NCBI GenBank assembly: GCA_947589495.1
Contig: CANQAK010000004.1
Span: 1 to 62,344, forward strand
Origin: an uncultured Bacilli bacterium
GTDB lineage: Bacteria; Bacillota_I; Bacilli_A; RF39; UBA660
Length of the DNA: 62,344 nt
Reading direction: 5' to 3'
Shown piece after piece: positions 7,813 through 62,344 of the stretch. The position numbers and the translations under genes were made by a program. The notes under the pieces were generated by a model. The model did not search any database. It saw only the letters and a list, made by a program, of their open reading frames with translations, and had not been told where the DNA came from. The stretch's first letter is position 1; every line of letters begins with the position of its first letter.

Positions 7813-9087
7813 TCACCACTTTTTTTCATCTTTTTTTATTAAATTAATTATAGCTTTAGCTTTTTCACTCCAATCATTTTCCTTAGCTTCTTTATCTAAT
7901 AAATCAATATAATCTTTTTTATCTTTTAATGCCATAGATTCCTCTAATTTATTAATAAAATCTTCATGATTTTTACCAATTAATACTGATTTATATTTTA
8001 AACATTCTAATAAATTTGTTGTAACTATTGGTTTATGTAAAGCCATATATTCAAATATTTTAACAGGACTTGTAGATTTAGTTATATCATTTAATAAAAA
8101 TGGAATTATTAATATATCACATAATTTAGCATAATATTTTAAAATTTTATAATCTCTTGAACCCATAAAATAAATATTTTTTTCATCATTTATATTTTCA
8201 TCATAAGATTCATCATACTTAATTCCAAATAAAATTACATTATATTTATCAGTTTTAGCAATTTTTTTTATTAATTTATAATCAAACCATTTTGCTAAAG
8301 CACCATAATAACAAACATTAATTTTACCATTATTAATTATATTTAGATAATCTTTTTCAACTTGATAGTCATCTTTAAAATTTTTAAAAAAATTATAATC
8401 TACTCCATTAGAAGAAAATGCTAAATTAACTTCTCCTCTTTTTTTAACAACATCTTTTTTTAATTCATCTGCTGTTACTACAACATAAACATCTTTATTA
8501 GTCATTGCATATTCATATTTTTGAATAATATTTTGAGGCAATTCTTTAGTACCGGCAAGTTCTGGACTTAAATGATCAATATATTCATAAATAAATCTAA
8601 AACCATTATTAATATAATTTTTTATATCTTCTATAGTTAATTTCCAATCAGTAGAATAAAGTTCTATATATTTTGGTTTATTAATATTTTTTAACTCTTG
8701 CATAAGTAATTTATTTAATAAAATATTATTAAAATTAAATAAATATAAATTATTATCTTGCTTCTTTATTGTTTTTACTTTATCAGTCATTGTAGTTACT
8801 TCATATAAAAGTAAACATTTATTTTTAGCTAAATTATTTGCAATATGTTGAGGTCTTTGAAAAAGAGGAACATTATAACCAAAACTACTTCTCCATAAAA
8901 TAATTCTGTCATAATTACTATTTAAAATATTTTTTATTTCTTTTCGATATTTATTTTTTTGAAAAAATACTTTAAAACTAATTTTATCTAAATAATTTGC
9001 TTTAATATAAGCATATAATTTTTTAAAAAATCCTATAAATCCATATTTTTTATAAACATTTACTAATTTTGATATTTTATCTTTCAT
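7813..9087 (-). CDS. glycosyltransferase (GT1/GT4-like C-terminal domain)
   Basis: 424 aa. The C-terminal SPVKIFEYMALHKPIVTT resembles the GT-B nucleotide-sugar binding motif. Confidence 0.5.
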   Translation of the reverse strand: MKDKISKLVNVYKKYGFIGFFKKLYAYIKANYLDKISFKVFFQKNKYRKEIKNILNSNYDRIILWRSSFGYNVPLFQRPQHIANNLAKNKCLLLYEVTTMTDKVKTIKKQDNNLYLFNFNNILLNKLLMQELKNINKPKYIELYSTDWKLTIEDIKNYINNGFRFIYEYIDHLSPELAGTKELPQNIIQKYEYAMTNKDVYVVVTADELKKDVVKKRGEVNLAFSSNGVDYNFFKNFKDDYQVEKDYLNIINNGKINVCYYGALAKWFDYKLIKKIAKTDKYNVILFGIKYDESYDENINDEKNIYFMGSRDYKILKYYAKLCDILIIPFLLNDITKSTSPVKIFEYMALHKPIVTTNLLECLKYKSVLIGKNHEDFINKLEESMALKDKKDYIDLLDKEAKENDWSEKAKAIINLIKKDEKKW

Positions 9088-9132
9088 ATATTACCTCAAT
9101 TTCTTATTTTTATTATAATTAATTAAACTCAT

Positions 9133-31190: not shown

Positions 31191-31276
31191 TCACGCTTCC
31201 TAATATTTAGGATACTCTATTTTTATATATTACAATCTTGTTTTGAATATTAAACTGAAGAAGTTTAATATTTTTT
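31191..31276. repeat. partial copy of the distal part of the ~0.5 kb inter-paralogue spacer
   Basis: cacgcttcctaatatt...tactctatttttatat(at)attacaat...tgaatattaaactgaagaagtttaatat is shared with 32978..33062 and, in its left part, with 34751..34798. Confidence 0.8.
31246..31272. other. AT-rich perfect hairpin 5 nt beyond the stop codon of paralogue 1
   Basis: aatattaaac-tgaagaa-gtttaatatt forms a 10-bp stem with a 7-nt loop. No U-run follows on the gene strand. Confidence 0.7.
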
Positions 31277-32533
31277 CTAACTTTTTATGTAGAATGGATC
31301 GGAACTTGTCCCTGCTCCCCCTAATTCTATATCAGACGTTAGATAGAAGACTGGGCGAATCGCATACGTATATTTCAAGGTGTTGTCGCTGATTCCGCCA
31401 AACTGATTCACAAACCACGCTTGGTAGAAAGGGTCCGAGCTACTCCATAGACCAATTCGCGACATGGTCCATTCATAGTCCGATGTTGTTCCCCCATTTT
31501 TTGAAATATGCATCCAGCCATTGTTTATACATTTTTGATATGTTTCTTGCCCTAAACGCATATGACAATTTGTTACGTTTGCTTGATAATAGTAATCATG
31601 TAAATATATTAATCCTATTGGTGCAGTATCACTCATTTGTTTCCATTTCTGATCTGTTATTAATTTATAATCTTTATCATAATATTGGGGTGCATCTTGT
31701 CCAGTCTCTATTCTATATGTTTGATCTGCACTTTCGATTAATGTTTCCTCATAATCATATCCTATATCTCCATACCACCATTCTTGTGGCTCTATTTTTC
31801 CTTTTATTTCTTCATTTAATGTACTTAAGAATGAATTACCATTTGTATTTAATTCTTTAAATAAGTCACTTTCTGGCCATTCGGGACAATCTCCTCCTTC
31901 ACAATAAACGTTAGTAGATGGGTCCACACTATATTTTGCATTCCATGCTTTTGTCCCTATGCTTTTTTGTTTCATCACTTTAATATTTCCTTCTGGAGTG
32001 ATTCCAATGATTCGATACATTTCATTAGATCCTGATGCACAATTTGCTTGTCCTATTTGCTTTAGGCATATATAGTTATTTACATTTGTTCCTTGATATC
32101 TATACATTCCTCCAACTAAATCTATACTCAATCCACTATCTGCTTGACTTTGTAGTGTTTGTAATGTTTGTGGTACTTTATCAAAATATAAATAACAATA
32201 TGATGTTTTATTTGTACTTACTGTTACTTTATTATTTTCCAAATCATATTCTAAACTGTTTTCTATTTTTTCTCCATTATTATCCATACATCCTGATTTT
32301 TCTTCATTTAACATATAACCTTCTCCTGGAAAACTTGATTCTTCTTTATACTGTCCATCTGTGCCTTTTACCATTATGGCAAACATACTATTTTTTTCTA
32401 CATCTACTACATCTTTTAACTTTACTTCATCTAATTGTGTTTGATATGCCGTATGTTTATGACATATTAAAAAGGTACTTACTGTTAGTATTACTCCTAT
32501 TACAAATATTACTGTAGTTTTTCTTTTCTCCAT
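31277..32533 (-). CDS. variable surface protein paralogue 1 (signal-anchored, C-terminal lectin-like domain with hypervariable segment)
   Basis: The track ORF starts at GTG 32545. The ATG at 32533 (MEKRKTT, GGTGA 8 nt upstream) matches the start of paralogue 2. Motifs shared with the other copies: GGMYRYQG, MYRIIGITPEGNIKVMKQ, CPEWPESD, WWYGD, GLIYLHDYYYQ, GWMHISKN, EWTMSR and RPVFYLTSDIELGGAG. Confidence 0.8.
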   Translation of the reverse strand: MEKRKTTVIFVIGVILTVSTFLICHKHTAYQTQLDEVKLKDVVDVEKNSMFAIMVKGTDGQYKEESSFPGEGYMLNEEKSGCMDNNGEKIENSLEYDLENNKVTVSTNKTSYCYLYFDKVPQTLQTLQSQADSGLSIDLVGGMYRYQGTNVNNYICLKQIGQANCASGSNEMYRIIGITPEGNIKVMKQKSIGTKAWNAKYSVDPSTNVYCEGGDCPEWPESDLFKELNTNGNSFLSTLNEEIKGKIEPQEWWYGDIGYDYEETLIESADQTYRIETGQDAPQYYDKDYKLITDQKWKQMSDTAPIGLIYLHDYYYQANVTNCHMRLGQETYQKCINNGWMHISKNGGTTSDYEWTMSRIGLWSSSDPFYQAWFVNQFGGISDNTLKYTYAIRPVFYLTSDIELGGAGTSSDPFYIKS

Positions 32534-32602: not shown

Positions 32603-32629
32603 ATTATATAATACCCCCCCCGGAGTCAA
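32603..32629 (-). promoter_or_regulatory. candidate sigma-A promoter of paralogue 1 with (G)8 in the spacer
   Basis: The minus strand reads TTGACT (32624..32629) - CC GGGGGGGG TATTA - TATAAT (32603..32608). The spacer is 15 nt. The homopolymer is at 32614..32621. Confidence 0.6.
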
Positions 32630-32834
32630 GTTTTAAAATTTATTTTGTTGTTAATTTTATGTTTTTTTTAAACATTCCATTTTTCTTGTGTCTTATTTTG
32701 ACTGGTTTTGTCGAAAGTATTTACAAATAAAAAATCCTATTATTTAATAGAGACTTATGGAAGTGTTGGTACTGACGTCACCTTTAAACTGATTTTCAGG
32801 GGGATTTATTTCTCAGGAAAGAGGTGAGACGGTT

Positions 32835-32939
32835 ATGAAAGCAAAAACTTTAAATAAGTTATTGTTATTAATAATAATAATTTTGTCCATTATTATTTTA
32901 ATAGACAAATTAAAAGACGTCGTCCTTATAGTAGGATAA
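32835..32939 (+). CDS. 34-aa hydrophobic peptide (candidate type I toxin-like small protein), copy A
   Basis: ATG with AGAGGTGA 7 nt upstream. The peptide is MKAKTLNKLLLLIIIILSIIILIDKLKDVVLIVG: a charged N-terminus, one TM helix and a charged tail. It is conserved at 34608..34712 with only hydrophobic substitutions. A candidate promoter TTGACT lies at 32698..32703. Confidence 0.5.
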   Translation: MKAKTLNKLLLLIIIILSIIILIDKLKDVVLIVG

Positions 32940-32987
32940 CGTCTATCTAAATATATAATTTAGGTGACGTGAAATATCACGCTTCCT
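32907..32987 (-). ncRNA. candidate antisense RNA overlapping the 3' end of small ORF A
   Basis: The minus strand carries a TTGTAA (33017..33022) - 17 nt - TATACT (32994..32999) promoter. Downstream are hairpin gcgtga-tat-ttcacgt, then hairpin 32915..32944 (agacgttatcc/ggacgacgtct) followed by UUUUAAUUU. It could alternatively be the 3' UTR and terminator of paralogue 2. Confidence 0.35.
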
Positions 32988-33033
32988 AATATTAGTATAC
33001 TCTATTTTTATATATATTACAATTCTTTTTTGA

Positions 33034-33058
33034 ATATTAAACTGAAGAAGTTTAATAT
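33034..33058. other. AT-rich perfect hairpin 5 nt beyond the stop codon of paralogue 2
   Basis: atattaaac-tgaagaa-gtttaatat forms a 9-bp stem with a 7-nt loop. It is the same element as 31246..31272. Confidence 0.7.
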
Positions 33059-33062
33059 CTTT

Positions 33063-34319
33063 CTAACTTGCTATGTAGAATGGTTCAGTTGTTGATCCTG
33101 CTCCTCCTAATTCTATATCGGATGTTAAATAGAATACTGGACGAACCGAATATTCATTTTTCAAGCTGTCCTTGCCGACACTGCCACTCGAAGTCACACG
33201 CCACGCATAGAAGTAAATACTTGAGCTTTCAGCTCGACCTATACGGGACATGGTCCATTCAGCTTGCTCGTTATCCGTAAATGAATTATCATTTTTTGAT
33301 ATGTGCATCCAACCGTTATCTTTACATTGTGTATGTGTATTGTTATCATAATGACAGATATTTGATGTTGATTGATAATAATAATCATGTAAATATATTA
33401 ATCCTATTTTTGCTTTGCTATTCATTTTTGCCCATTTTCCTGTTTCTATTGCTCCTTGTTTTAGTTTTGGATAATATTGACTGTCTACTTGACCTGTTTC
33501 TATTTGATATATTTCATCTGCTGTTTTATTTGCATAATCATAGTTTATATCACCATACCACCAATCCCAATCTTCTATTTTATTTTTTATATCACTAGAT
33601 AAATTACTTAAGAATGAATCACTATCTGCGTTTAATGTTTTATATATTTCACTATCTGGCCATTCTGGACAGCCACCATCATCACATTTGTATTTCTCTG
33701 TGGACGTTTTTTCATCATATTTTGTATTCCATACGAATGTATTTGTTCCATTATTTGTATATTTTGTTTGTTTCATTACTTTTATATTTCCTTCAGGAGT
33801 GATTCCTATGATTCGATACATTTCATCTGTTTTTTCTTTACAATTTGTATTATTTAAACTTCCTAAACAAATGTAATTATTTACATCTGCACCTTGGTAT
33901 CTATACATTCCTCCAACAGGATTTGTACTTAAACCACTGCCTTCTTTTCTTATATCGTCTACTGACAATTGTTTATCAAAATACAAATAACAATATGATG
34001 TTTGCCCTGTACTTACTATTACTTGTTGACTATCTTCATCATATGATAAACTATTTGGTATTAACTCGTTATTATTATCCATACACCCTGATTTATCTTT
34101 ATTTAGTTTGTAACCTTTTTCTGGAAAACTATCACTTGGTGCATATTCTCCATTTTCTTTTACCATTATTGCAAACATATTATTATCTTTTATATCTTTT
34201 AATTTTACTTCATCTAATTGTGTTGTTTGATATGCCGTATGTTTATGACATATTAAAAAGGTACTTACTATTAACATTACTCCTATTACAAATATTATTG
34301 TTGTTTTTCTTTTCTCCAT
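33063..34319 (-). CDS. variable surface protein paralogue 2
   Basis: 418 aa. It has the same architecture and motif islands as paralogue 1. The first ~40 aa are near-identical. Confidence 0.8.
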   Translation of the reverse strand: MEKRKTTIIFVIGVMLIVSTFLICHKHTAYQTTQLDEVKLKDIKDNNMFAIMVKENGEYAPSDSFPEKGYKLNKDKSGCMDNNNELIPNSLSYDEDSQQVIVSTGQTSYCYLYFDKQLSVDDIRKEGSGLSTNPVGGMYRYQGADVNNYICLGSLNNTNCKEKTDEMYRIIGITPEGNIKVMKQTKYTNNGTNTFVWNTKYDEKTSTEKYKCDDGGCPEWPDSEIYKTLNADSDSFLSNLSSDIKNKIEDWDWWYGDINYDYANKTADEIYQIETGQVDSQYYPKLKQGAIETGKWAKMNSKAKIGLIYLHDYYYQSTSNICHYDNNTHTQCKDNGWMHISKNDNSFTDNEQAEWTMSRIGRAESSSIYFYAWRVTSSGSVGKDSLKNEYSVRPVFYLTSDIELGGAGSTTEPFYIAS

Positions 34320-34391: not shown

Positions 34392-34419
34392 ATTATATAA
34401 TACCCCCCCCCGGAGTCAA
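34392..34419 (-). promoter_or_regulatory. candidate sigma-A promoter of paralogue 2 with (G)9 in the spacer
   Basis: The minus strand reads TTGACT (34414..34419) - CC GGGGGGGGG TATTA - TATAAT (34392..34397). The spacer is 16 nt. The homopolymer is at 34403..34411. Confidence 0.6.
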
Positions 34420-34607
34420 GTTTCAATTTTTATTTTGTTGTTAACTTTATGTTTTTCTTGTGTCTTATTTTGACTGGTTTTGTCGAAAGTATTTACAAAT
34501 AAAAAATTCTATTATTTAATAGAAACTTATGGAAGTGTTGGTACTGACGTCACCTTTAAACTGATTTTCAGGGGGATTTGGTTCTTCAGAAAAGAGGTGA
34601 GACGGTT

Positions 34608-34712
34608 ATGAAAGCAAAAACTTTAAATAAGTTCTTGTTATTAATTATATTAATTTTGTTACTATTTATTTTAGTAGACAAATTAAAAGACGTCGTCCTT
34701 ATAGTAGGATAA
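34608..34712 (+). CDS. 34-aa hydrophobic peptide (candidate type I toxin-like small protein), copy B
   Basis: The peptide is MKAKTLNKFLLLIILILLLFILVDKLKDVVLIVG. It has the same RBS (AGAGGTGA) and the same N- and C-terminal residues as copy A. A candidate promoter TTGACT lies at 34470..34475. Confidence 0.5.
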   Translation: MKAKTLNKFLLLIILILLLFILVDKLKDVVLIVG

Positions 34713-34760
34713 CGTCTATCTAAATAAATAATTTAGGTGGCGTGAAATATCACGCTTCCT
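34680..34760 (-). ncRNA. candidate antisense RNA overlapping the 3' end of small ORF B
   Basis: The minus strand carries TTGTAA (34790..34795) - 17 nt - TATACT (34767..34772). Terminator-like hairpin 34688..34717 is followed by a U-rich run. No large gene lies upstream on this strand, so here a read-through 3' UTR cannot explain it. Confidence 0.4.
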
Positions 34761-34828
34761 AATATTAGTATACTCTATTTTTATATATATTACAATATCT
34801 TGTTTTAGCATTTACATTTCAAAATTAT

Positions 34829-37175: not shown

Positions 37176-37185
37176 AATAAAAAAA

Positions 37186-37244
37186 GGGAGTTAGTTAGAC
37201 TCCCAGGGTTAAGTTAAGTCTATTTTAACGTCTTCGTTGACGAG
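37186..37244. repeat. structured ~60-nt 3' element, copy 1 (orphan)
   Basis: gggagTtagttagActccc agggttaagttaagtctattttaacgtcttcgttgacgag. Relative to copies 2 and 3, the first hairpin keeps its stem while the loop differs. Confidence 0.8.
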
Positions 37245-37378
37245 TAAATAAAAATTCATTTACTTATAGTATTTTATAATATTTATTATTATTTGTAAAT
37301 CCTAAATTTTTATACACTTATATTGTATCAATTTTATTGAATAATGTAAAATACTTTTAATAATATTTCATAAAAAAA

Positions 37379-37438
37379 GGGAGGTCGTTACTTCTCCCAG
37401 GGTTAAGTTAAATCTATTTTAACGTCTTCGTTGACGAG
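37379..37438. repeat. structured ~60-nt 3' element, copy 2 (directly downstream of paralogue 3)
   Basis: gggaggtcgttacttctccc agggttaagttaaatctattttaacgtcttcgttgacgag. On the minus strand, GGGAG..CTCCC followed by a U-run acts as a terminator for 37466..39598. Confidence 0.8.
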
Positions 37439-37465
37439 TTTTTTTTATTTTACTTATTTAGTATT

Positions 37466-39598
37466 TTATGAATTTGCTATGTAGAATGGTTCTGAGGTTG
37501 TACCTGCTCCTTCTAACGTTATATCAGAGGTTAGATAGAAGACTGGTCGTACATCATTCTTAGCCTCTAAGCCGTTTCCGTTGACACTGCCTTCCTGATT
37601 TACGATCCACGTATTAAACCAATCGTACGCTCTATCTCGACCAACACGAGTCATCGTCCATTCATAATTCGACGTTGTTTCTGCATTTTTACTCATATGC
37701 ATCCAACCATTATCTTTACATACTCCAGATTGGTTAGTTTTAGGATGACAATTATCTGATGTTGATTGATAATAATAATCATGTAAATACATTAATCCTA
37801 TTTTTGCTTTATTACTCATTTTTTGCCATCTTCCTGTTTCTACTTCACCAGTTACCCTTTTTGGATAATAATGGCTATCTAGTTGACCTGTTTCTATCTT
37901 CCAAATCTCTTTCGCTGATGTATTTGCATAATCAATATATATATCTCCATAATACCATTCCCAGTCTTCAATTTTATTCTGTATTCCACTAGTCAATTTA
38001 CTTAAAAACGAATCACTATTTCCGTTTAATGTTGTGTATATAGTACTTGCTGGCCATTCCGGGCATCCTCCACCTAGTCCACATGTTGAATCTTTATAGT
38101 TTGTATTCCATGCATATTTTCCTATACTTGTTTGTTTCATTACTTTTATATTTCCTGATGGTGTTACTCCTATAATTCTATACATATTATCATCGTAGCC
38201 ATTTTCTTTTGCACTAGTACATTCATTTGATCCTACTCCGCTCAAACATATAAAGTTGTTTACATTATTACCTTTTAATGTGTCTGTTCCTTGATATCTA
38301 TATATTCCTCCGACTAATGTCGAACTTAATGTTTTTGTTGTATCTTTACTTCTTAATGTGTTTTCTAAATCTGTTACTATTGTAAATGGTTCTTCTAATG
38401 TTCCTTTTCCTTCTACTTCTATATCATTTTTCAAATAGAAAACAGGGCGAACCACATACATATTGTTTAACTCATTCCCGCCAGCCACAACACCATTCGG
38501 GTTCACACTCCACGCACGGAAAATAGAACCAGTGGTACCACTCCGACCCTCACGCGACATAGTCCATTCTATATCAGATGATGTTCCTCCATTCTTTGAT
38601 ATATGCATCCATCCTTGACTTACACAATCTTCATAATTATTATTTTTTGTGCTATGACAACTCTCTTGGTTTGCTTGGTAATAATAATCATGTAAGTACA
38701 TTAATCCTATATTGGCTTTTTCTTCCATTTGAATCCATCTTTTGTCTGTTACTTCTTCTTTATTATTTGAATTATGTCCATAGTATTTTGTATCTTTTTG
38801 ACCTGTTTCTACTTGATATACTTCATTTGCTATTAGTGTTCCTACAAAATTAAAGTGCATATCACCATACCACCACTTTTGGGGTTCTATTTTATTTTGT
38901 ATATTTTTATCTAATGTATTATAAAATGTATTATTTAATGTTGTAAATATATCACTTTCTGGCCATTCTGGACAACTATCATCTCCACACTTTGAATCAT
39001 TAGAATTTTCGTTCCATCTATATTTACTTGTTCCACTATTTGTAAATTTTGTTTGCTTTATTATCTTTATATTTCCTTCTGGTGTTACTCCAATTATCCT
39101 GTACATATCATCACTTTGATTTAAACAATCACTTCCTAAACATATATAATTATTAACTTTATCATTTGTTCCTTGATATCTATACATTCCTCCGATTAAA
39201 ATTTTACTTAATGTATTTGTTGTGTCAACTTCTCTTAATTGTTTTACCATTTTAGATTCTTTGTCAAAATATAAATAACAATAGGATGTTTTATTTGAAA
39301 TAAGTGTTACTTTATTACTTTCTGAATCATATGTTAAACTGTTTTCAATTTTGACTCCATTATTATCCATACATCCTGATTTTTCTGTATTTAATACATA
39401 ACCTTTTTCAGGAAACGTCGATTGTTCAGTATATTCTCCACTATCATTTTGAAGCATTATCGCAAACATATTATTTTTTTCTACTTCTTTCAAACTTACT
39501 GTATCCAATGTTGCATTTGCCGATTTATTTTTGTTTATAAAAACTATACTTGTTGTTAATAATAATATTAATATAGAAATTATTCCAATTTTTTTCAT
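37466..39598 (-). CDS. variable surface protein paralogue 3 with two tandem C-terminal modules
   Basis: 710 aa: a signal anchor plus N-domain, then two complete copies of the GG(M/I)YRYQG...RPVFYL...EPF(T/Y)I module. The first ends near aa 410 at EPFTIVT. Each module has its own hypervariable segment. Confidence 0.8.
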   Translation of the reverse strand: MKKIGIISILILLLTTSIVFINKNKSANATLDTVSLKEVEKNNMFAIMLQNDSGEYTEQSTFPEKGYVLNTEKSGCMDNNGVKIENSLTYDSESNKVTLISNKTSYCYLYFDKESKMVKQLREVDTTNTLSKILIGGMYRYQGTNDKVNNYICLGSDCLNQSDDMYRIIGVTPEGNIKIIKQTKFTNSGTSKYRWNENSNDSKCGDDSCPEWPESDIFTTLNNTFYNTLDKNIQNKIEPQKWWYGDMHFNFVGTLIANEVYQVETGQKDTKYYGHNSNNKEEVTDKRWIQMEEKANIGLMYLHDYYYQANQESCHSTKNNNYEDCVSQGWMHISKNGGTSSDIEWTMSREGRSGTTGSIFRAWSVNPNGVVAGGNELNNMYVVRPVFYLKNDIEVEGKGTLEEPFTIVTDLENTLRSKDTTKTLSSTLVGGIYRYQGTDTLKGNNVNNFICLSGVGSNECTSAKENGYDDNMYRIIGVTPSGNIKVMKQTSIGKYAWNTNYKDSTCGLGGGCPEWPASTIYTTLNGNSDSFLSKLTSGIQNKIEDWEWYYGDIYIDYANTSAKEIWKIETGQLDSHYYPKRVTGEVETGRWQKMSNKAKIGLMYLHDYYYQSTSDNCHPKTNQSGVCKDNGWMHMSKNAETTSNYEWTMTRVGRDRAYDWFNTWIVNQEGSVNGNGLEAKNDVRPVFYLTSDITLEGAGTTSEPFYIANS

Positions 39599-44929: not shown

Positions 44930-47863
44930 CTACTTATATCTTTTACAATCTTTTACTTCAAATTTTACTTCTCCAACTGACTTTTTACCAGCGTTATTAC
45001 TTTGATTATAATCTCGGTAATTTCTAAATTTTAATGAAATATCCCACTTATGAGTAGTTATTTCTCTTGAACTTGCATTATTTTCAATAGATATTTCTCC
45101 GATTTTATATGAAGTATTTTCAATAATATCGACATCATATGTATGTTTAGCAGTAACACTATTTGTTGTTATATAACCATCTAACTCTAATATTAATTGA
45201 TTATTTAAAGTAGCCATATATCCTCTGTCATCTATATACTTGTTTTGGAAACTATTTTCTTTAGCAGTATAATTAACATAATAAGTACATATTGTTCTAT
45301 CTTTATTAGAAGTTAGTGATATTGAAGAACTTGTCTTTTCACTTGTAATGTCTATGTGGTCATTAGTTCCAACATTTTCTTTAGACATTTCATCATCAGT
45401 AACTAATAATTTTACTTCTCCACCATTAGCTAATGTAACTAATGCATCTACATCCCCATCATCATTTTCATCATCAGGTTTAGAATCATCACAATTCTTA
45501 TCACATTGGCCATCGCCATCTTCATCGATGTTTTTATCAGGGGTTCTATCACCATCAGTATCACAATTTAAATCACATTTATTGTCGCTATTGGTATCAC
45601 AGTTTAAATCACACTTACCATCATTATCGATATCACAATTTGTATCACATGTACCATCATTATTATTATCACAGTTTTTGTCACATATGCCATCATCGTT
45701 AGTATCAACATTTTTATCAGGGACTTTATCACCATTGGTATCACAATTCTTATCACATACACCATCTTTGTTAGTGTCACAATTTAAATCGCATTGGCCA
45801 TTACCAGTAGTATCACAATTTAAATCGCATTGTCCATCATTATTGGTGTCACAATTTTTGTCACACTTATTATCATTGTTGGTATCACAGTTTGTATCGC
45901 ATTTACCGTCTTTATTTGTGTCACAATTTAAATCACATTTACCGTCATTATTTGTATCACAATTTAAATCACATTGTCCATCATTATTTGTGTCACAGTT
46001 TTTGTCACACTTATTATCACCGTTGGTATCACAATTCTTATCACAAGTACCATCTTTATTTGTGTCACAATTTAAATCGCATTGTCCATCATTATTGAAA
46101 TCACAATTCTTATCACACTTATTATCGTTATTAGTATCACAATTTCTATCACAAATGCCATCACCATTATTGTCACAATTCAAGTCACAATTACCATCAT
46201 TGTTGTTATCACAATTCAAGTCGCATTTATCATCGTTATTAGTATCACAATTTCTATCGCACTTATTATCACCGTTGGTATCGCAGTTCTTATCGCATTT
46301 ACCGTCTTTATTTGTATCACAATTTAAATCACACTTGCCATCATTATTTGTATCAACATTAGTGTCTGGTTTTTTATCTCCATTGGTATCACAGTTTAAA
46401 TCACATTTACCATCTTTATCAGTATCTTCATTTAAATCTGGATCTCCATCTCCATCTGTATCTATATTTAAATCAGGGAATCCATCATTGTTGTTATCAC
46501 AATTTAAATCGCATTTACCGTCTCCATCTTTATCAACATTTAAATCCGGTATGTAATCTCCGTCAGTGTCACAATTTAAGTCACACTTACCATCACCATC
46601 AGTATCTTCATTAACTTTATTTTTATCAGGGATGCCATCTCCATCTGTATCTATATTTACATCTGGTTCTCCATCACCATCGATATCAACATTTACGTCT
46701 GGTTTAAAATCTCCATTTTTATCACAATTTAAATCGCATTTACCATCGTCATTTTTATCAACATTTAAATCTGGTTCTCCATCACCATTCATATCAACAT
46801 TTACATCTGGAATATTATCGCCATTTTTATCACAGTTTAAATCACATTTACCATCTCCGTCAGTATCTTGATTTAATAAATTTCTGTCTGGCTTTCCGTC
46901 AGAATCAGTGTTAATATCTGGTTTGCCATCGCCATTGGTATCTATTCCATAGTTTCCACTCGTATCATCATCGATATTAAAGTCTGGAATACCATCTCCA
47001 TTAACATCTATATTTATATCAGGGTTACCATCATTATTTGTATCTATATTTACATCTGGTTTATTATTTCCATTTGTATCAACATTCAAATCTGGTTTTA
47101 AATCTCCATCTTTATCAATATTTAGGTCTGGTGTACCATCACCATTGACATCAACATTTAAATCTGGTTTGCCATCGCCATCTTTATCGATATTTAAATC
47201 TGGAATATTATCACCATTTTTGTCACAGTTTAAATCGCATTTATTGTCTCCATCAGTATCTTGATTTAATAAATTTCTATCTGGTTTACCATCAGAATTA
47301 GTTTTAATATCCGGTTTACCATCACCATTGGTGTCTATTTCATAATTTCCATCAGTATCATCATCAATATTAAAGTCTGGAATACCATCACCATTAACAT
47401 CTATATTTATATCAGGGATACCGTCTCCATCTATATCAATATTTAAATCAGGTTTCTTATCTCCATCAGTATCTATATTTATATCAGGGATACCATCGCC
47501 ATCTAAATCAATATTATAATCTGGATAATTGTCATTATTAACATCACAGTTTAAATCACATTTACCATCTTTATCAGTATCTTGGTTAATAAGATTTTTA
47601 TCAGGGATTCCATCACCATTTGTATCTATATTAAAAATAGCTTTATTAGTTTTTCCATAAGTAATATTTGCATCAGGTTTTCCATCATTATTTAAATCAG
47701 CATTAAGTTGATTACTTAAATTAACACCTGTACCAAAAAAATCCATTGTAAATGTTGTAAATAATAATATTAAAGTTAAAAGCATTATTATTATCATAAT
47801 AACAATAGCCATTAATTTTTTCTTTTTTAATTCTACATAATCCATATTTAAATCTACATTCAT
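44930..47863 (-). CDS. 977-aa secreted/anchored protein made of Asp/Asn-rich calcium-binding-type repeats, many with paired cysteines
   Basis: An N-terminal TM helix is followed by about 740 aa of D-x-(D/N)-x-D-G-x-P-D and C-D-x-N-C-D-x-N-x-D-G-x repeats. These resemble thrombospondin type 3 repeats. A ~180-aa non-repetitive C-terminal domain follows. Confidence 0.75.
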   Translation of the reverse strand: MNVDLNMDYVELKKKKLMAIVIMIIIMLLTLILLFTTFTMDFFGTGVNLSNQLNADLNNDGKPDANITYGKTNKAIFNIDTNGDGIPDKNLINQDTDKDGKCDLNCDVNNDNYPDYNIDLDGDGIPDINIDTDGDKKPDLNIDIDGDGIPDINIDVNGDGIPDFNIDDDTDGNYEIDTNGDGKPDIKTNSDGKPDRNLLNQDTDGDNKCDLNCDKNGDNIPDLNIDKDGDGKPDLNVDVNGDGTPDLNIDKDGDLKPDLNVDTNGNNKPDVNIDTNNDGNPDINIDVNGDGIPDFNIDDDTSGNYGIDTNGDGKPDINTDSDGKPDRNLLNQDTDGDGKCDLNCDKNGDNIPDVNVDMNGDGEPDLNVDKNDDGKCDLNCDKNGDFKPDVNVDIDGDGEPDVNIDTDGDGIPDKNKVNEDTDGDGKCDLNCDTDGDYIPDLNVDKDGDGKCDLNCDNNNDGFPDLNIDTDGDGDPDLNEDTDKDGKCDLNCDTNGDKKPDTNVDTNNDGKCDLNCDTNKDGKCDKNCDTNGDNKCDRNCDTNNDDKCDLNCDNNNDGNCDLNCDNNGDGICDRNCDTNNDNKCDKNCDFNNDGQCDLNCDTNKDGTCDKNCDTNGDNKCDKNCDTNNDGQCDLNCDTNNDGKCDLNCDTNKDGKCDTNCDTNNDNKCDKNCDTNNDGQCDLNCDTTGNGQCDLNCDTNKDGVCDKNCDTNGDKVPDKNVDTNDDGICDKNCDNNNDGTCDTNCDIDNDGKCDLNCDTNSDNKCDLNCDTDGDRTPDKNIDEDGDGQCDKNCDDSKPDDENDDGDVDALVTLANGGEVKLLVTDDEMSKENVGTNDHIDITSEKTSSSISLTSNKDRTICTYYVNYTAKENSFQNKYIDDRGYMATLNNQLILELDGYITTNSVTAKHTYDVDIIENTSYKIGEISIENNASSREITTHKWDISLKFRNYRDYNQSNNAGKKSVGEVKFEVKDCKRYK
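45490..46370. repeat. 36-nt (12-codon) tandem coding repeats
   Basis: About twenty units of CD.NCD.N.DG. lie back to back. Nucleotide-level periodicity is visible (gtatcacaatttaaatcacat...). Confidence 0.8.
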
Positions 47864-51039: not shown

Positions 51040-51116
51040 AGCCCGTTGGTGAAGTGGCTTAACACACTGCGTTCTCAGCGCAGCATTCACGGGTTCGAAC
51101 CCCGTACGGGTTACCA
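51040..51116 (+). tRNA. tRNA-Glu (anticodon CUC), CCA encoded
   Basis: A hand-folded cloverleaf fits. The acceptor stem is agcccgt/acgggtt with one G-U pair. The anticodon stem is ctgcg/cgcag with loop ttCTCag. The T arm is acggg-ttcgaac-cccgt. The sequence is close to my memory of Bacillus tRNA-Glu. Confidence 0.8.
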
Positions 51117-61620: not shown

Positions 61621-61670
61621 CTAAGAAATTATATGAATAACAAATGAAAAAATGTTAAAACAATTAAAAA

Positions 61671-61730
61671 GGGAGGTCGTTACTTCTCCCAGGGTTAAGT
61701 TAAGTCTATTTTAACGTCTTCGTTGACGAG
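61671..61730. repeat. structured ~60-nt 3' element, copy 3 (directly downstream of the truncated paralogue)
   Basis: It differs from copy 2 (37379..37438) at a single position. A minus-strand GGGAG..CTCCC hairpin plus U-run forms a terminator. Confidence 0.8.
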
Positions 61731-61741
61731 TTTTTTATTTG

Positions 61742-62305
61742 TTATGAAACTATGTAGAATGGATCATCTATCGTTCCTGAACCTTTTAATCCTATATTTT
61801 TCTTCAAGTAAAATACCGGGCGAATTGCCAACTTAGCGTTCTGATTGGAGGTGAAGAGATCGCCACTAGAAGATACAACCCATGAATAGTATTTATCACT
61901 GTTACTATTCATTGGGCCTGTCCGCGTCATCATCCATTCACTCTCTGAACCTCCATTTTTTGTTATATGCATCCAACTTCCTTTACATGTTATTTCATAA
62001 TCTGTTCTACAACTTGTATTATGTCCTTCTTTGCTTCCTGAATATGCATAATCATGTATATACATTAATGCTATCTTTGATTGTTTACCTTTCGTCCATG
62101 TTTCGTTTGTAATTAATTCTCCACTTGCATTATAATATTGTGTTGTTGTTTTCCCTGTTTCTATCTTATATGCTTCTTCTGTGGTTATATTTTCATTTTG
62201 TACTAAATTCCACCCTACATCCCCATAAATATAATTCCATTCTTCTATTTTTCTTTGTATTCCACTATTGTTAATGGTACTATAAAAATGTAAGAAAAAG
62301 TCCAA
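61742..62305 (-). CDS. 5'-truncated member of the variable surface protein family (C-terminal module only; possible pseudogene or silent cassette)
   Basis: 187 aa counted from a TTG. An in-frame stop lies at 62324..62326 just upstream. Homology starts at the ...IQRKIEEWNYIYGD motif, so the signal anchor, N-domain and first half of the module are missing. The window ends at 62344, so upstream context is unseen. Confidence 0.55.
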   Translation of the reverse strand: MDFFLHFYSTINNSGIQRKIEEWNYIYGDVGWNLVQNENITTEEAYKIETGKTTTQYYNASGELITNETWTKGKQSKIALMYIHDYAYSGSKEGHNTSCRTDYEITCKGSWMHITKNGGSESEWMMTRTGPMNSNSDKYYSWVVSSSGDLFTSNQNAKLAIRPVFYLKKNIGLKGSGTIDDPFYIVS

Positions 62306-62344
62306 ATAAAACTGTAGGATTTCCTACATAATTAAAAGGACTTA

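What the first reader, a model, noticed from the sequence alone, without database searches (positions are those of the whole stretch)
33063..33260. Hypervariable G+C-rich segment, copy 2
The variable codons lie at 33144..33245, between RPVFYL (33126..33143) and EWTMS (33246..33260). The 130-nt stretch from the RPVFYL codons to the EWTMS codons has exactly the same length as in copy 1, so the two align without gaps. They nevertheless differ at roughly 40-45% of nucleotides. The 3' end of the gene (RPVFYLTSDIELGGAG to the stop) and the region upstream of the segment are far more similar. A-poor codons are used (cgt, tcg, gcg, ggc, gtc). This is the sharpest local drop in identity anywhere in the two tandem units.
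Basis: seen in the sequence. Interest (0 to 1): 0.65.

Follow-up and report, generated by a model that had tools for sequence, protein, structure and literature searches.

The report
Retroelement-type variable region, template absent here
The G+C-rich patch at the end of this surface-protein gene sits exactly where related gut bacteria rewrite the same protein with a diversity-generating retroelement, but the retroelement's template and enzyme are not on this contig, so activity on this copy is unproven.

Summary
The segment is real. On the coding (minus) strand, 33129..33260 has 46% GC, GC3 0.45 and 25% A. The rest of the gene has GC3 0.14 and 46% A; other window genes have GC3 0.08. It aligns without gaps to copy 1 and differs at 39% of core bases. 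It is not the sharpest identity drop: it ranks 69th of 396 windows by nucleotide identity and ties for lowest by amino-acid identity.

All five paralogous C-terminal domains in the window carry the same G+C-rich, A-poor patch between EWTMSR and RPVFY. So do most of 68 homologues from AT-rich uncultured gut Bacilli.

Five homologous loci hold a template repeat (TR) whose mismatches to this patch are almost all TR adenines. Four also carry a reverse transcriptase with Avd-like and MutS-I-like genes. Two strains with identical TR and RT differ at 15 patch positions, all TR adenines.

The AlphaFold model matches phage DUF6273 proteins, a published C-type-lectin-like target domain of diversity-generating retroelements (DGRs).

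I conclude it is a DGR-type variable region in a cellular, membrane-anchored paralogue family. The window has no TR or RT, so current activity is unproven. This is a new member of a known kind.

The parts
33063..34319 (-). Copy 2 gene (418 aa). It has an N-terminal membrane-anchor helix, a beta-rich module and a C-terminal DUF6273-like / C-type-lectin-like domain.
   Evidence: ORF and translation. AlphaFold2 model with pLDDT 87 and helix 2-31. Foldseek hits to phage DUF6273 proteins, E 3e-8 to 1e-4. 31% identity over 294 aa to the DGR target in L084, E 3e-26.
33129..33251 (-). Predicted variable region (VR) of copy 2. It runs from the M codon of EWTMSR to the Y codon of RPVFY, the span that is homologous to the template repeat in related DGR cassettes. 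The variable core is 33144..33245.
   Evidence: TR/VR homology limits in L005, L078, L083, L084 and L085. GC 0.46, GC3 0.45, A 0.25.
33129..33143 (-). 3' boundary box CGTCCAGTATTCTAT (RPVFY codons). It is the equivalent of the G+C-rich 3' end of VR/TR homology (IMH-like) in the homologues.
   Evidence: L005 VR has CGCCCAGTCTTCTAT and its TR has CGCCCAGCCTTCTAT. Copy 1 matches the L005 VR box 15/15 and copy 2 matches 13/15.
33246..33260 (-). EWTMS codons. This is the conserved 5' boundary of the cassette.
31277..32533 (-). Copy 1 gene. Its VR-equivalent is 31343..31465.
37466..39598 (-). A 710-aa paralogue with two such domains. The VR-equivalents are 37535..37654 and 38435..38560.
61742..62344 (-). 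Fifth paralogue, cut by the window end. Its VR-equivalent is 61808..61930.
34392..34419 (-). Promoter-like site of copy 2 (TTGACT, 16 nt, TATAAT). Its spacer holds a G9 run (34403..34411). The copy 1 counterpart has G8 (32614..32621).

Best explanation
The segment is the variable region of a diversity-generating-retroelement (DGR) target. In this family a template repeat (TR) is transcribed. A DGR reverse transcriptase, with Avd-like and MutS-I-like accessory proteins, copies it while misincorporating opposite template adenines. The cDNA then replaces the stretch from (W)TMSR to RPVFY at the C-terminal, ligand-facing end of a DUF6273 / C-type-lectin-like domain.

The length never changes. That is why the copies align without gaps yet differ at many positions.

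The G+C-rich, A-poor composition in a 24.5% GC genome is the footprint of that process. The TR scaffold avoids A at positions that must stay constant, so it uses G, C or T. TR adenines are overwritten by any base.

Shown: this holds in homologous loci from related genomes. Inferred: copy 2 in this window was written the same way by a TR and RT that lie outside this 62-kb contig (acting in trans). Whether copy 2 is still being rewritten is open; I put it at about even odds.
For: 1. Composition. VR-zone GC3 is 0.44-0.59 and A is 0.19-0.29 in all five window copies, against GC3 0.08 and A 0.41 in 15 other window genes.
2. Family-wide pattern. In 68 VR zones the means are GC 0.47, GC3 0.43 and A 0.22, against 0.30, 0.16 and 0.42 upstream in the same genes.
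3. TR/VR pairs with adenine-specific mismatches at the homologous position: L078 21/23, L005 16/17, L083 16/16, L084 16/17, L085 18/19.
4. Cassette genes. L078 has an RT (RVT_1, E 6e-21) with an IGNMTSQ...YMDD motif, a bAvd-like ORF and a MutS_I-like ORF. L083-L085 have the same gene order.
5. Active diversification. L084 and L085 have identical TR and RT sequences but differ at 15 VR positions, all 15 at TR adenines.
6. Multi-target pattern. Several paralogues in one MAG share the L005 TR scaffold, and a Hadza MAG shows comb-like NNY codons in its VRs.
7. Homology. Copy 2 is homologous to these targets over about 290 aa.
8. Fold and literature. The model matches DUF6273 phage proteins. DUF6273 is a published DGR target domain with the VR at its C-terminus (PMC10743442, PMC11792537, bioRxiv 10.1101/2024.10.15.618418).
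9. Mismatches involving A. Among VRs of the window's clade, 63% of mismatches involve an A although A is 23% of the bases; for T the figures are 46% and 29%. The CANQLN MAG set built around the L005 TR shows a similar excess.
10. Maintenance of G+C. GC3 stays near 0.5 here while the flanks of the same long-diverged paralogues sit at 0.14-0.18. This argues that rewriting continued after the copies diverged (inference).
Against: The window has no TR. A BLASTN search and an nhmmer profile built from VRs and TRs find only the five VRs.
The window has no RT, Avd-like or MutS-I-like gene.
The five VRs have three different lengths (129, 132 and 135 nt), and their boundary boxes are not identical. One TR therefore cannot serve them all.
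Copy 2 carries codons ending in A or G (GAA, AAG, AAA) and several scaffold changes towards A/T. Its 3' box differs at 2 of 15 positions from the L005-type box. Its A (0.25) and A3 (0.20) are above those of the demonstrated VRs (0.14-0.19 and 0-0.15). All of this is compatible with some decay since the last rewriting.
No same-locus variants were seen in the metagenome contigs, but depth is only 3-6x.
Confidence: 0.8

Rival explanations
1. Relic variable region. The patch was written by a DGR in the past, but this genome has lost the retroelement or this copy has lost competence. It now evolves like any other sequence and is slowly drifting towards A/T.
For: There is no TR or RT on the contig. 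Copy 2 has scaffold changes towards A/T, K/E codons ending in purines, 13/15 in the 3' box, and A and A3 above those of the demonstrated VRs. Some family members have fully AT-like VR zones with GC3 <= 0.2 (L002, L010, L031, L037, L038, L057, L060, L076, L077), so decay does happen in this family. A published phage case notes DUF6273 targets that persist without the DGR (bioRxiv 10.1101/2024.10.15.618418).
Against: GC3 is still 0.45, against 0.14 in the rest of the gene and 0.08 in the genome, although the paralogues are only 57% identical in protein. Most family VRs lie on contigs without a TR or RT even in genomes where a TR exists, so absence from one contig says little.
Confidence: 0.3
2. 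Ordinary paralogue divergence under diversifying selection on a binding loop. The G+C richness would then be a by-product of the amino acids used (G, A, R, W, S).
For: By protein identity this is the joint-lowest window between copies 1 and 2 (0.35), with 22 nonsynonymous against 3 synonymous codon differences.
Against: The anomaly is at synonymous sites (GC3 0.45 against 0.14 and 0.08; rare codons TCG, GCG, GGC, GTC, CGT). The same rare synonymous choices are shared across genera. Homologues have TRs with adenine-specific mismatches.
Confidence: 0.05
3. Segmental gene conversion among paralogues. Under this reading, cassettes are exchanged between copies using the conserved EWTMSR and RPVFYL flanks as recombination anchors.
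For: Conserved flanks surround a divergent core. Sub-blocks are shared in mosaic fashion: TGG AGT AGC TCG GAC in copy 1 and L082, and GTG ACT TCG AGT GGC in copy 2 and L082. Metagenome contigs match both flanks but not the core.
Against: It does not explain the A depletion or the raised GC3. There are no promoterless donor cassettes in the window; all five copies sit inside long ORFs. The shared blocks are just as well explained by a common TR scaffold. It could act in addition to a DGR.
Confidence: 0.07
4. A patch of foreign, higher-GC DNA acquired by horizontal transfer.
For: There is a local GC jump from about 25% to about 46%.
Against: The patch is only about 130 nt long, in frame, and at the same place in five paralogues and in dozens of homologues from different genomes.
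Confidence: 0.01

Closest known systems
DGR target proteins with a DUF6273 (C-type-lectin-like) domain in gut phages: tentaclins and Mtd-like second targets (PMC10743442), Faecalibacterium prophage targets (PMC11792537), Toutatisvirus (bioRxiv 10.1101/2024.10.15.618418)
   Same: The fold class is the same: Foldseek top hits are DUF6273 phage proteins, and Pfam DUF6273 scores above its cut-off in three homologues. The VR maps to the C-terminal end of the domain. More than one target per element occurs. Targets can persist without a nearby DGR.
   Different: Here the proteins are cellular. They are encoded on a chromosome between uppP, tyrS, gyrA/B and cell-envelope genes. They carry an N-terminal membrane anchor and are expanded to 5 or more paralogues per genome. 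Only 1 relative was found in 2.9 million IMG/VR contigs. The window proteins themselves do not reach the Pfam DUF6273 threshold.
Bordetella phage BPP-1 Mtd and Treponema denticola TvpA (classic C-type-lectin-fold DGR variable proteins; from my own knowledge)
   Same: The VR lies at the C-terminus of a C-lec-type fold. Variation is adenine-specific, the scaffold is fixed, and the length never changes.
   Different: No sequence similarity was detected. A PDB profile search found nothing. The Foldseek PDB search gave only weak matches to the Legionella Lcl C-terminal domain and to C-type lectins (E 0.6-4). In the homologues the cassette order is target, TR, MutS-I-like, Avd-like, RT.
Multi-target chromosomal DGRs of small-genome lineages (CPR bacteria and DPANN archaea; Paul et al. 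2017, cited from memory)
   Same: There are many paralogous targets per small genome, most of them remote from the RT and TR.
   Different: The host lineage differs (AT-rich uncultured gut Bacilli). The target family differs. The multi-target claim for the window's own genome is inferred, not shown.

Membership tests
DGR variable region / DGR target gene | A cognate template repeat whose differences from the VR are confined to TR adenines | tested here: inconclusive
The feature is met at the homologous position in L005, L078, L083, L084 and L085.
DGR variable region / DGR target gene | A DGR-type reverse transcriptase, usually with Avd, in the same genome | tested here: inconclusive
   Absent from the window (YxDD scan; phmmer with the L078 RT, Avd-like and MutS-I-like proteins). 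Present next to homologous targets in L078 and L083-L085. More than 3,000 RT relatives exist in public data.
DGR variable region / DGR target gene | Homology to demonstrated DGR targets, with the VR at the equivalent position | tested here: met
   BLASTP of copy 2 against the L084 target gives E 3e-26 and against the L078 target E 3e-21. EWTMSR...RPVFY aligns to their VRs.
DGR variable region / DGR target gene | Adenine depletion and a non-A scaffold in the VR relative to the flanks | tested here: met
   A is 0.25 against 0.46; A3 is 9/44 against 192/374; GC3 is 0.45 against 0.14. Demonstrated VRs have A 0.14-0.19 and GC3 0.51-0.70.
DGR variable region / DGR target gene | A conserved G+C-rich 3' boundary (IMH-like) shared with the TR | tested here: inconclusive
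   Copy 1 has CGCCCAGTCTTCTAT, identical to the L005 VR box. Copy 2 has CGTCCAGTATTCTAT (13/15). The TR of this genome is unknown.
DGR variable region / DGR target gene | Within-population variation restricted to TR-adenine positions | tested here: inconclusive
   The rabbit-gut runs X1-X4 are held only as Logan contigs at 3-6x depth. All contigs with copy-2-specific flanks equal the window. The feature is shown between strains for L084 and L085 (15/15).
Pfam DUF6273 (PF19789) / C-type-lectin-like fold | Match to the Pfam model above its gathering score | tested here: not met
   The three window proteins have no Pfam hit. Homologues P0003, P0010 and P0089 score 25-32 bits against a cut-off of 23.5. 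9 of 54 family members hit at E <= 0.1.
Pfam DUF6273 (PF19789) / C-type-lectin-like fold | Fold similarity to DUF6273 or C-lec proteins | tested here: met
   The model has pLDDT 87. BFVD top hits are DUF6273 proteins, E 3e-8 to 1e-4, probability 1.0. In the PDB search the Lcl C-terminal domain and C-type lectins match only weakly.
Gene-conversion antigenic-variation cassette system | Silent, promoterless donor cassettes that feed an expression site | tested here: not met
   Only five copies exist in the window, and each lies inside a long ORF.

The most novel reading that the evidence does not exclude
An uncultured, AT-rich gut Bacilli lineage runs a chromosomal (non-phage) DGR that rewrites in trans the lectin-like tips of many membrane-anchored paralogues: five on this contig and at least 14 in one Hadza MAG. 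The promoters of these genes also carry slippage-prone poly-G spacers. Together this would be a two-layer surface-variation system, with on/off switching and sequence diversification. Copy 2 would be a live target. The G+C / A-poor island would then serve as a TR-free way to detect DGR targets in AT-rich genomes.
Probability: 0.4. Interest if true: 0.6.

Novelty: new member of a known kind. Interest (0 to 1): 0.45.

Why it matters
DGRs are the only known prokaryotic system of targeted protein hypermutation. DUF6273 targets have so far been described mainly as phage receptor-binding proteins. Here the same domain and VR position occur in a large cellular family of anchored surface proteins in poorly known, uncultured gut Bacilli of rabbit, human, goat and chicken. 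This suggests these bacteria diversify what they bind on hosts, phages or neighbours. On the practical side, in very AT-rich genomes a DGR VR stands out as a short G+C-rich, A-poor island with aberrant codon usage. That signature flags remote or orphan targets that TR/VR-pair detectors miss.

Tried and rejected
- Sliding identity of copy 1 against copy 2. This rejected the "sharpest drop" claim.
- Search for a TR in the window by BLASTN and by an nhmmer profile. None was found.
- Search for RT, Avd-like and MutS-I-like genes in the window. None was found.
- Rfam and tRNA scans. They returned only tRNA-Glu at 51040..51116, which explains one unrelated GC island.
- Reads. Only four runs of one rabbit-gut sample are available, held as Logan contigs at low depth. 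They show paralogue contigs on the flanks but no same-locus variants. One 258-nt contig is 82% identical across the copy 1 VR, but it has different flanks, so it is another gene and not an allele or a TR.
- The look-up of encoding contigs for P0001, P0005, P0006, P0014 and P0016. None is on record, so I could not reach the other contigs of this MAG or its nearest relatives.
- The genome-contig scan.
- PDB sequence search with the family profile. Nothing was found.
- Literature searches for DGRs in RF39, Tenericutes or Mollicutes. Nothing relevant was found.
- A single TR serving all five window VRs. I rejected this because the VR lengths differ (129, 132 and 135 nt).
- HGT patch and amino-acid-composition explanations. 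I rejected both on synonymous-site and family-wide evidence.

Full report
OBSERVATION

The flagged stretch is the 3' end of a minus-strand gene (33063..34319, 418 aa). Copy 1 is 31277..32533/32545. The EWTMS-to-RPVFY zone is 132 nt in both copies and aligns without gaps.

The core 33144..33245 is 60.8% identical between copies, so 39% of bases differ. The RPVFYL-to-stop tail is 81.5% identical. The whole genes are 72% identical in nucleotides and 57% in protein.

The segment is strongly G+C-rich and A-poor for this genome. The window is 24.5% GC. The zone is 46% GC. Its GC3 is 20/44, against 54/374 in the rest of the gene (p = 5e-6) and 0.08 in 15 other window genes. Coding-strand A is 25% against 46%.

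The claim that this is the sharpest identity drop is wrong at the nucleotide level. The core ranks 69th of 396 windows, and several windows reach 48-54%. It ties for lowest only in amino-acid identity.

ANATOMY IN THE WINDOW

The window holds five paralogous C-terminal domains:
- copy 1;
- copy 2;
- two domains in the 710-aa ORF 37466..39598;
- one domain in a gene cut by the window end (61742..).

Each has the same patch between EWTMSR and RPVFY, with GC3 0.44-0.59 and A 0.19-0.29. These five patches account for five of the eight islands of GC >= 42% in 62 kb. One of the other islands is a tRNA-Glu.

The neighbours are chromosomal housekeeping and envelope genes: gyrB and gyrA, glycosyltransferases, an O-antigen-ligase-like protein, uppP, tyrS, typA/bipA and a YebC-type regulator.

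FAMILY

Copy 2 has 192 relatives in public data. The few that carry a source name are labelled uncultured "Bacilli bacterium" MAGs; a few hit Pfam DUF6273. A scan of GTDB genomes returned 80 loci from AT-rich gut MAGs of rabbit, Hadza and other humans, goat and chicken. There are many copies per genome: about 17 loci from one Hadza MAG and about 10 from one rabbit MAG.

Across 68 VR zones the mean GC, GC3 and A are 0.47, 0.43 and 0.22. Upstream in the same genes the values are 0.30, 0.16 and 0.42. The distribution is bimodal; a minority of members have AT-like zones.

DEMONSTRATED DGRs ON HOMOLOGUES

Five homologous loci carry a template repeat matching exactly this zone, with mismatches almost only at TR adenines:

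| Locus | VR | TR | Mismatches at TR adenines |
|---|---|---|---|
| L078 | 1186-1277 | 1603-1694 | 21/23 |
| L005 | 292-393 | 581-682 | 16/17 |
| L083 | 8617-8716 | 8991-9090 | 16/16 |
| L084 | 8418-8525 | 8806-8913 | 16/17 |
| L085 | 8418-8525 | 8806-8913 | 18/19 |

L078 carries, downstream of the target and TR, a MutS_I-like ORF, a bAvd-like ORF and a reverse transcriptase (RVT_1, E 6e-21; motif IGNMTSQ...YMDD). L083-L085 have the same gene order in chromosomal contexts.

L084 and L085 come from different samples. Their TR and RT sequences are identical, but their VRs differ at 15 positions, and all 15 are TR adenines. There are also 42 differences in the other 1,539 nt of the gene. This shows active diversification in this family.

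In the rabbit MAG that holds L005, several other paralogues share the same TR scaffold, with mostly adenine-type differences. In the Hadza MAG the VRs show a regular comb of NNY codons on a fixed scaffold.

Copy 2 aligns to the L084 and L078 targets over about 290 aa, with E 3e-26 and 3e-21.

FOLD AND LITERATURE

An AlphaFold2 model of copy 2, built on a 54-sequence alignment, has pLDDT 87. It shows an N-terminal helix (residues 2-31), and the VR lies in beta strands 354-398.

Foldseek against viral models returns DUF6273 proteins as top hits, E 3e-8 to 1e-4. Against the PDB the best hit is the Thomasclavelia ramosa IgA peptidase 9qa6 (E 7e-6). After that come weak matches to the Legionella Lcl C-terminal domain and to C-type lectins. 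A profile search of PDB sequences finds nothing.

DUF6273 is published as a C-type-lectin-like DGR target domain with the VR at its C-terminus, in gut phages (PMC10743442, PMC11792537, bioRxiv 10.1101/2024.10.15.618418). The family here is cellular: only one relative was found in IMG/VR.

STATUS IN THIS GENOME

The window has no TR and no RT, Avd-like or MutS-I-like gene. That is the norm for this family. Only five of the roughly 85 loci examined hold a TR. I could not reach the rest of this MAG.

The window's VRs come in three lengths and have slightly different boundary boxes, so one TR cannot serve all five. Copy 1 has the L005-type 3' box at 15/15 positions and copy 2 at 13/15.

Compared with demonstrated VRs (A 0.14-0.19, A3 0-0.15, GC3 0.51-0.70), the window copies fall as follows:
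- the domain at 38435..38569 (A 0.19, A3 0.04) lies closest to that range; copy 1 matches it on GC3 (0.59) but has A 0.24 and A3 0.16;
- copy 2 (A 0.25, A3 0.20, GC3 0.45) is somewhat softened, with a few scaffold changes towards A/T and K/E codons ending in purines.

Against decay, GC3 remains three times that of the flanks although the paralogues are old (57% protein identity). In the window's clade, 63% of mismatches between VRs involve an A at 23% A content, which resembles the known sets.

Metagenome contigs show 20-60x of paralogue sequence on the conserved flanks. Depth falls to the genome's own 3-6x in the core, and no alternative alleles of copy 2 are seen. The test is underpowered.

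MECHANISM

Shown in relatives: TR-templated, adenine-mutagenic rewriting of a fixed-length cassette at the tip of a lectin-like domain.

Inferred for copy 2: the same origin, with the TR and RT elsewhere in the genome.

The G+C richness follows from two things seen in the TRs. First, their constant positions avoid A; TR third positions are mostly G, C or T, TR GC is 0.39-0.46 and TR A is 0.28-0.40. Second, their adenines are replaced by any base in the VR (VR GC 0.48-0.58).

RIVALS

- Relic VR. This is plausible, about 0.3.
- Ordinary divergence driven by amino-acid composition. It fails on synonymous-site evidence.
- Gene conversion between paralogues. It does not explain the composition but may coexist with a DGR.
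- An HGT patch. It is excluded by the family-wide, in-frame pattern.

NOVELTY

This is a known mechanism acting on a known target fold. What is new is a cellular, membrane-anchored, multi-paralogue family in a little-studied lineage. I rate it a new member of a known kind, of moderate interest.

IN PASSING

The promoters of copies 1 and 2 carry G8 and G9 runs between TTGACT and TATAAT. These are the only runs of seven or more G or C in the window (expected 0.27). In 1.08 Mb of fetched loci, all 32 runs of seven or more G lie on the family-gene strand. At least 19 sit in the same promoter-like context, most of them 32-42 nt before the start codon of a family gene. This suggests slipped-strand control of expression.

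Noticed in passing
window 34403..34411 (G9) and 32614..32621 (G8), minus strand; also L006, L010, L014, L021, L026, L029, L031, L035, L038, L053, L057, L060, L063, L075, L082: A poly-G run sits in the spacer of a TTGAC[AT]...TATAAT promoter-like site upstream of family genes. These are the only runs of seven or more G or C in the window (expected 0.27). All 32 such runs in 1.08 Mb of loci lie on the family-gene strand, with lengths of 7-9 in this context. With G9 the spacer is 16 nt (the best promoter match in the region, 11/12); with G8 it is 15 nt. This looks like slipped-strand phase or expression variation. The length variants seen in contigs (32613 +C, 34403 -1) may be cross-mapping between the two near-identical spacers.
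   Followed up: partly
window 32653..33023 vs 34425..34796: The intergenic spacer, 5' leader and first ~30 codons of the two tandem units are 90-97% identical, far more than the coding bodies (72%). This suggests either recent conversion of the 5' region or strong constraint on it.
   Followed up: no
window 37180..37258, 37374..37452, 61666..61744 (minus-strand sense); also L010:10374-10415, L025:10344-10375, L057:521-549, L006:1266-1288, L075:9473-9504: A conserved 3' element lies right after the stop codon of family genes. It contains the small inverted repeat CGTCAACGAAGACG followed by a GGGAG...CTCCC-T-run terminator-like hairpin. It is present twice in tandem after the 710-aa gene, and its first part is conserved in other genera.
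   Followed up: partly
window 33034..33058 and the equivalent after copy 1 (about 31248..31272): A perfect 10-bp A/T-rich hairpin (ATATTAAACT-TCTTC-AGTTTAATAT) lies immediately after the stop codons of copies 1 and 2. It has no T-run, and the terminator scan does not call it.
   Followed up: no
window 44930..47863 (minus): A 977-aa ORF is built largely of 36-nt (12-codon) repeats (28 copies detected). It has no Pfam hit.
   Followed up: no
L078:1866-2243, L083:9312-9686, L084:9296-9670: A ~125-aa ORF sits between the TR and the Avd-like gene in every cassette. The L078 copy hits MutS domain I (E 2e-5). An 82-87-aa ORF also overlaps the RT 3' end in each cassette.
   Followed up: partly
L005:581-682 and 920-1759: A template repeat lies directly downstream of its target gene but has no RT after it. 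The next gene is a PD-(D/E)XK transposase-like protein, followed by engB, a prepilin-like gene and der.
   Followed up: partly
model of window 33063..34319: The best PDB fold match is the Thomasclavelia ramosa IgA peptidase (9qa6, E 7e-6, 329 aligned columns). This is a host-protein-directed enzyme from a related Bacilli lineage. I did not examine which domain matches.
   Followed up: no
window 32836..32940 (+), inside the conserved spacer: A small ORF encodes a 34-aa very hydrophobic peptide (MKAKTLNKLLLLIIIILSIIILIDKLKDVVLIVG). It lies on the strand opposite the family genes, and a counterpart lies in the second spacer copy.
   Followed up: no
L024, L037, L044, L047 (Hadza MAG): A second class of poly-G runs (G9-G11, context gcctact-Gn) lies upstream of other ORFs. 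In L024, L044 and L047 it is 79 nt before genes for MKK...GGTYAYFS-type N-termini.
   Followed up: no
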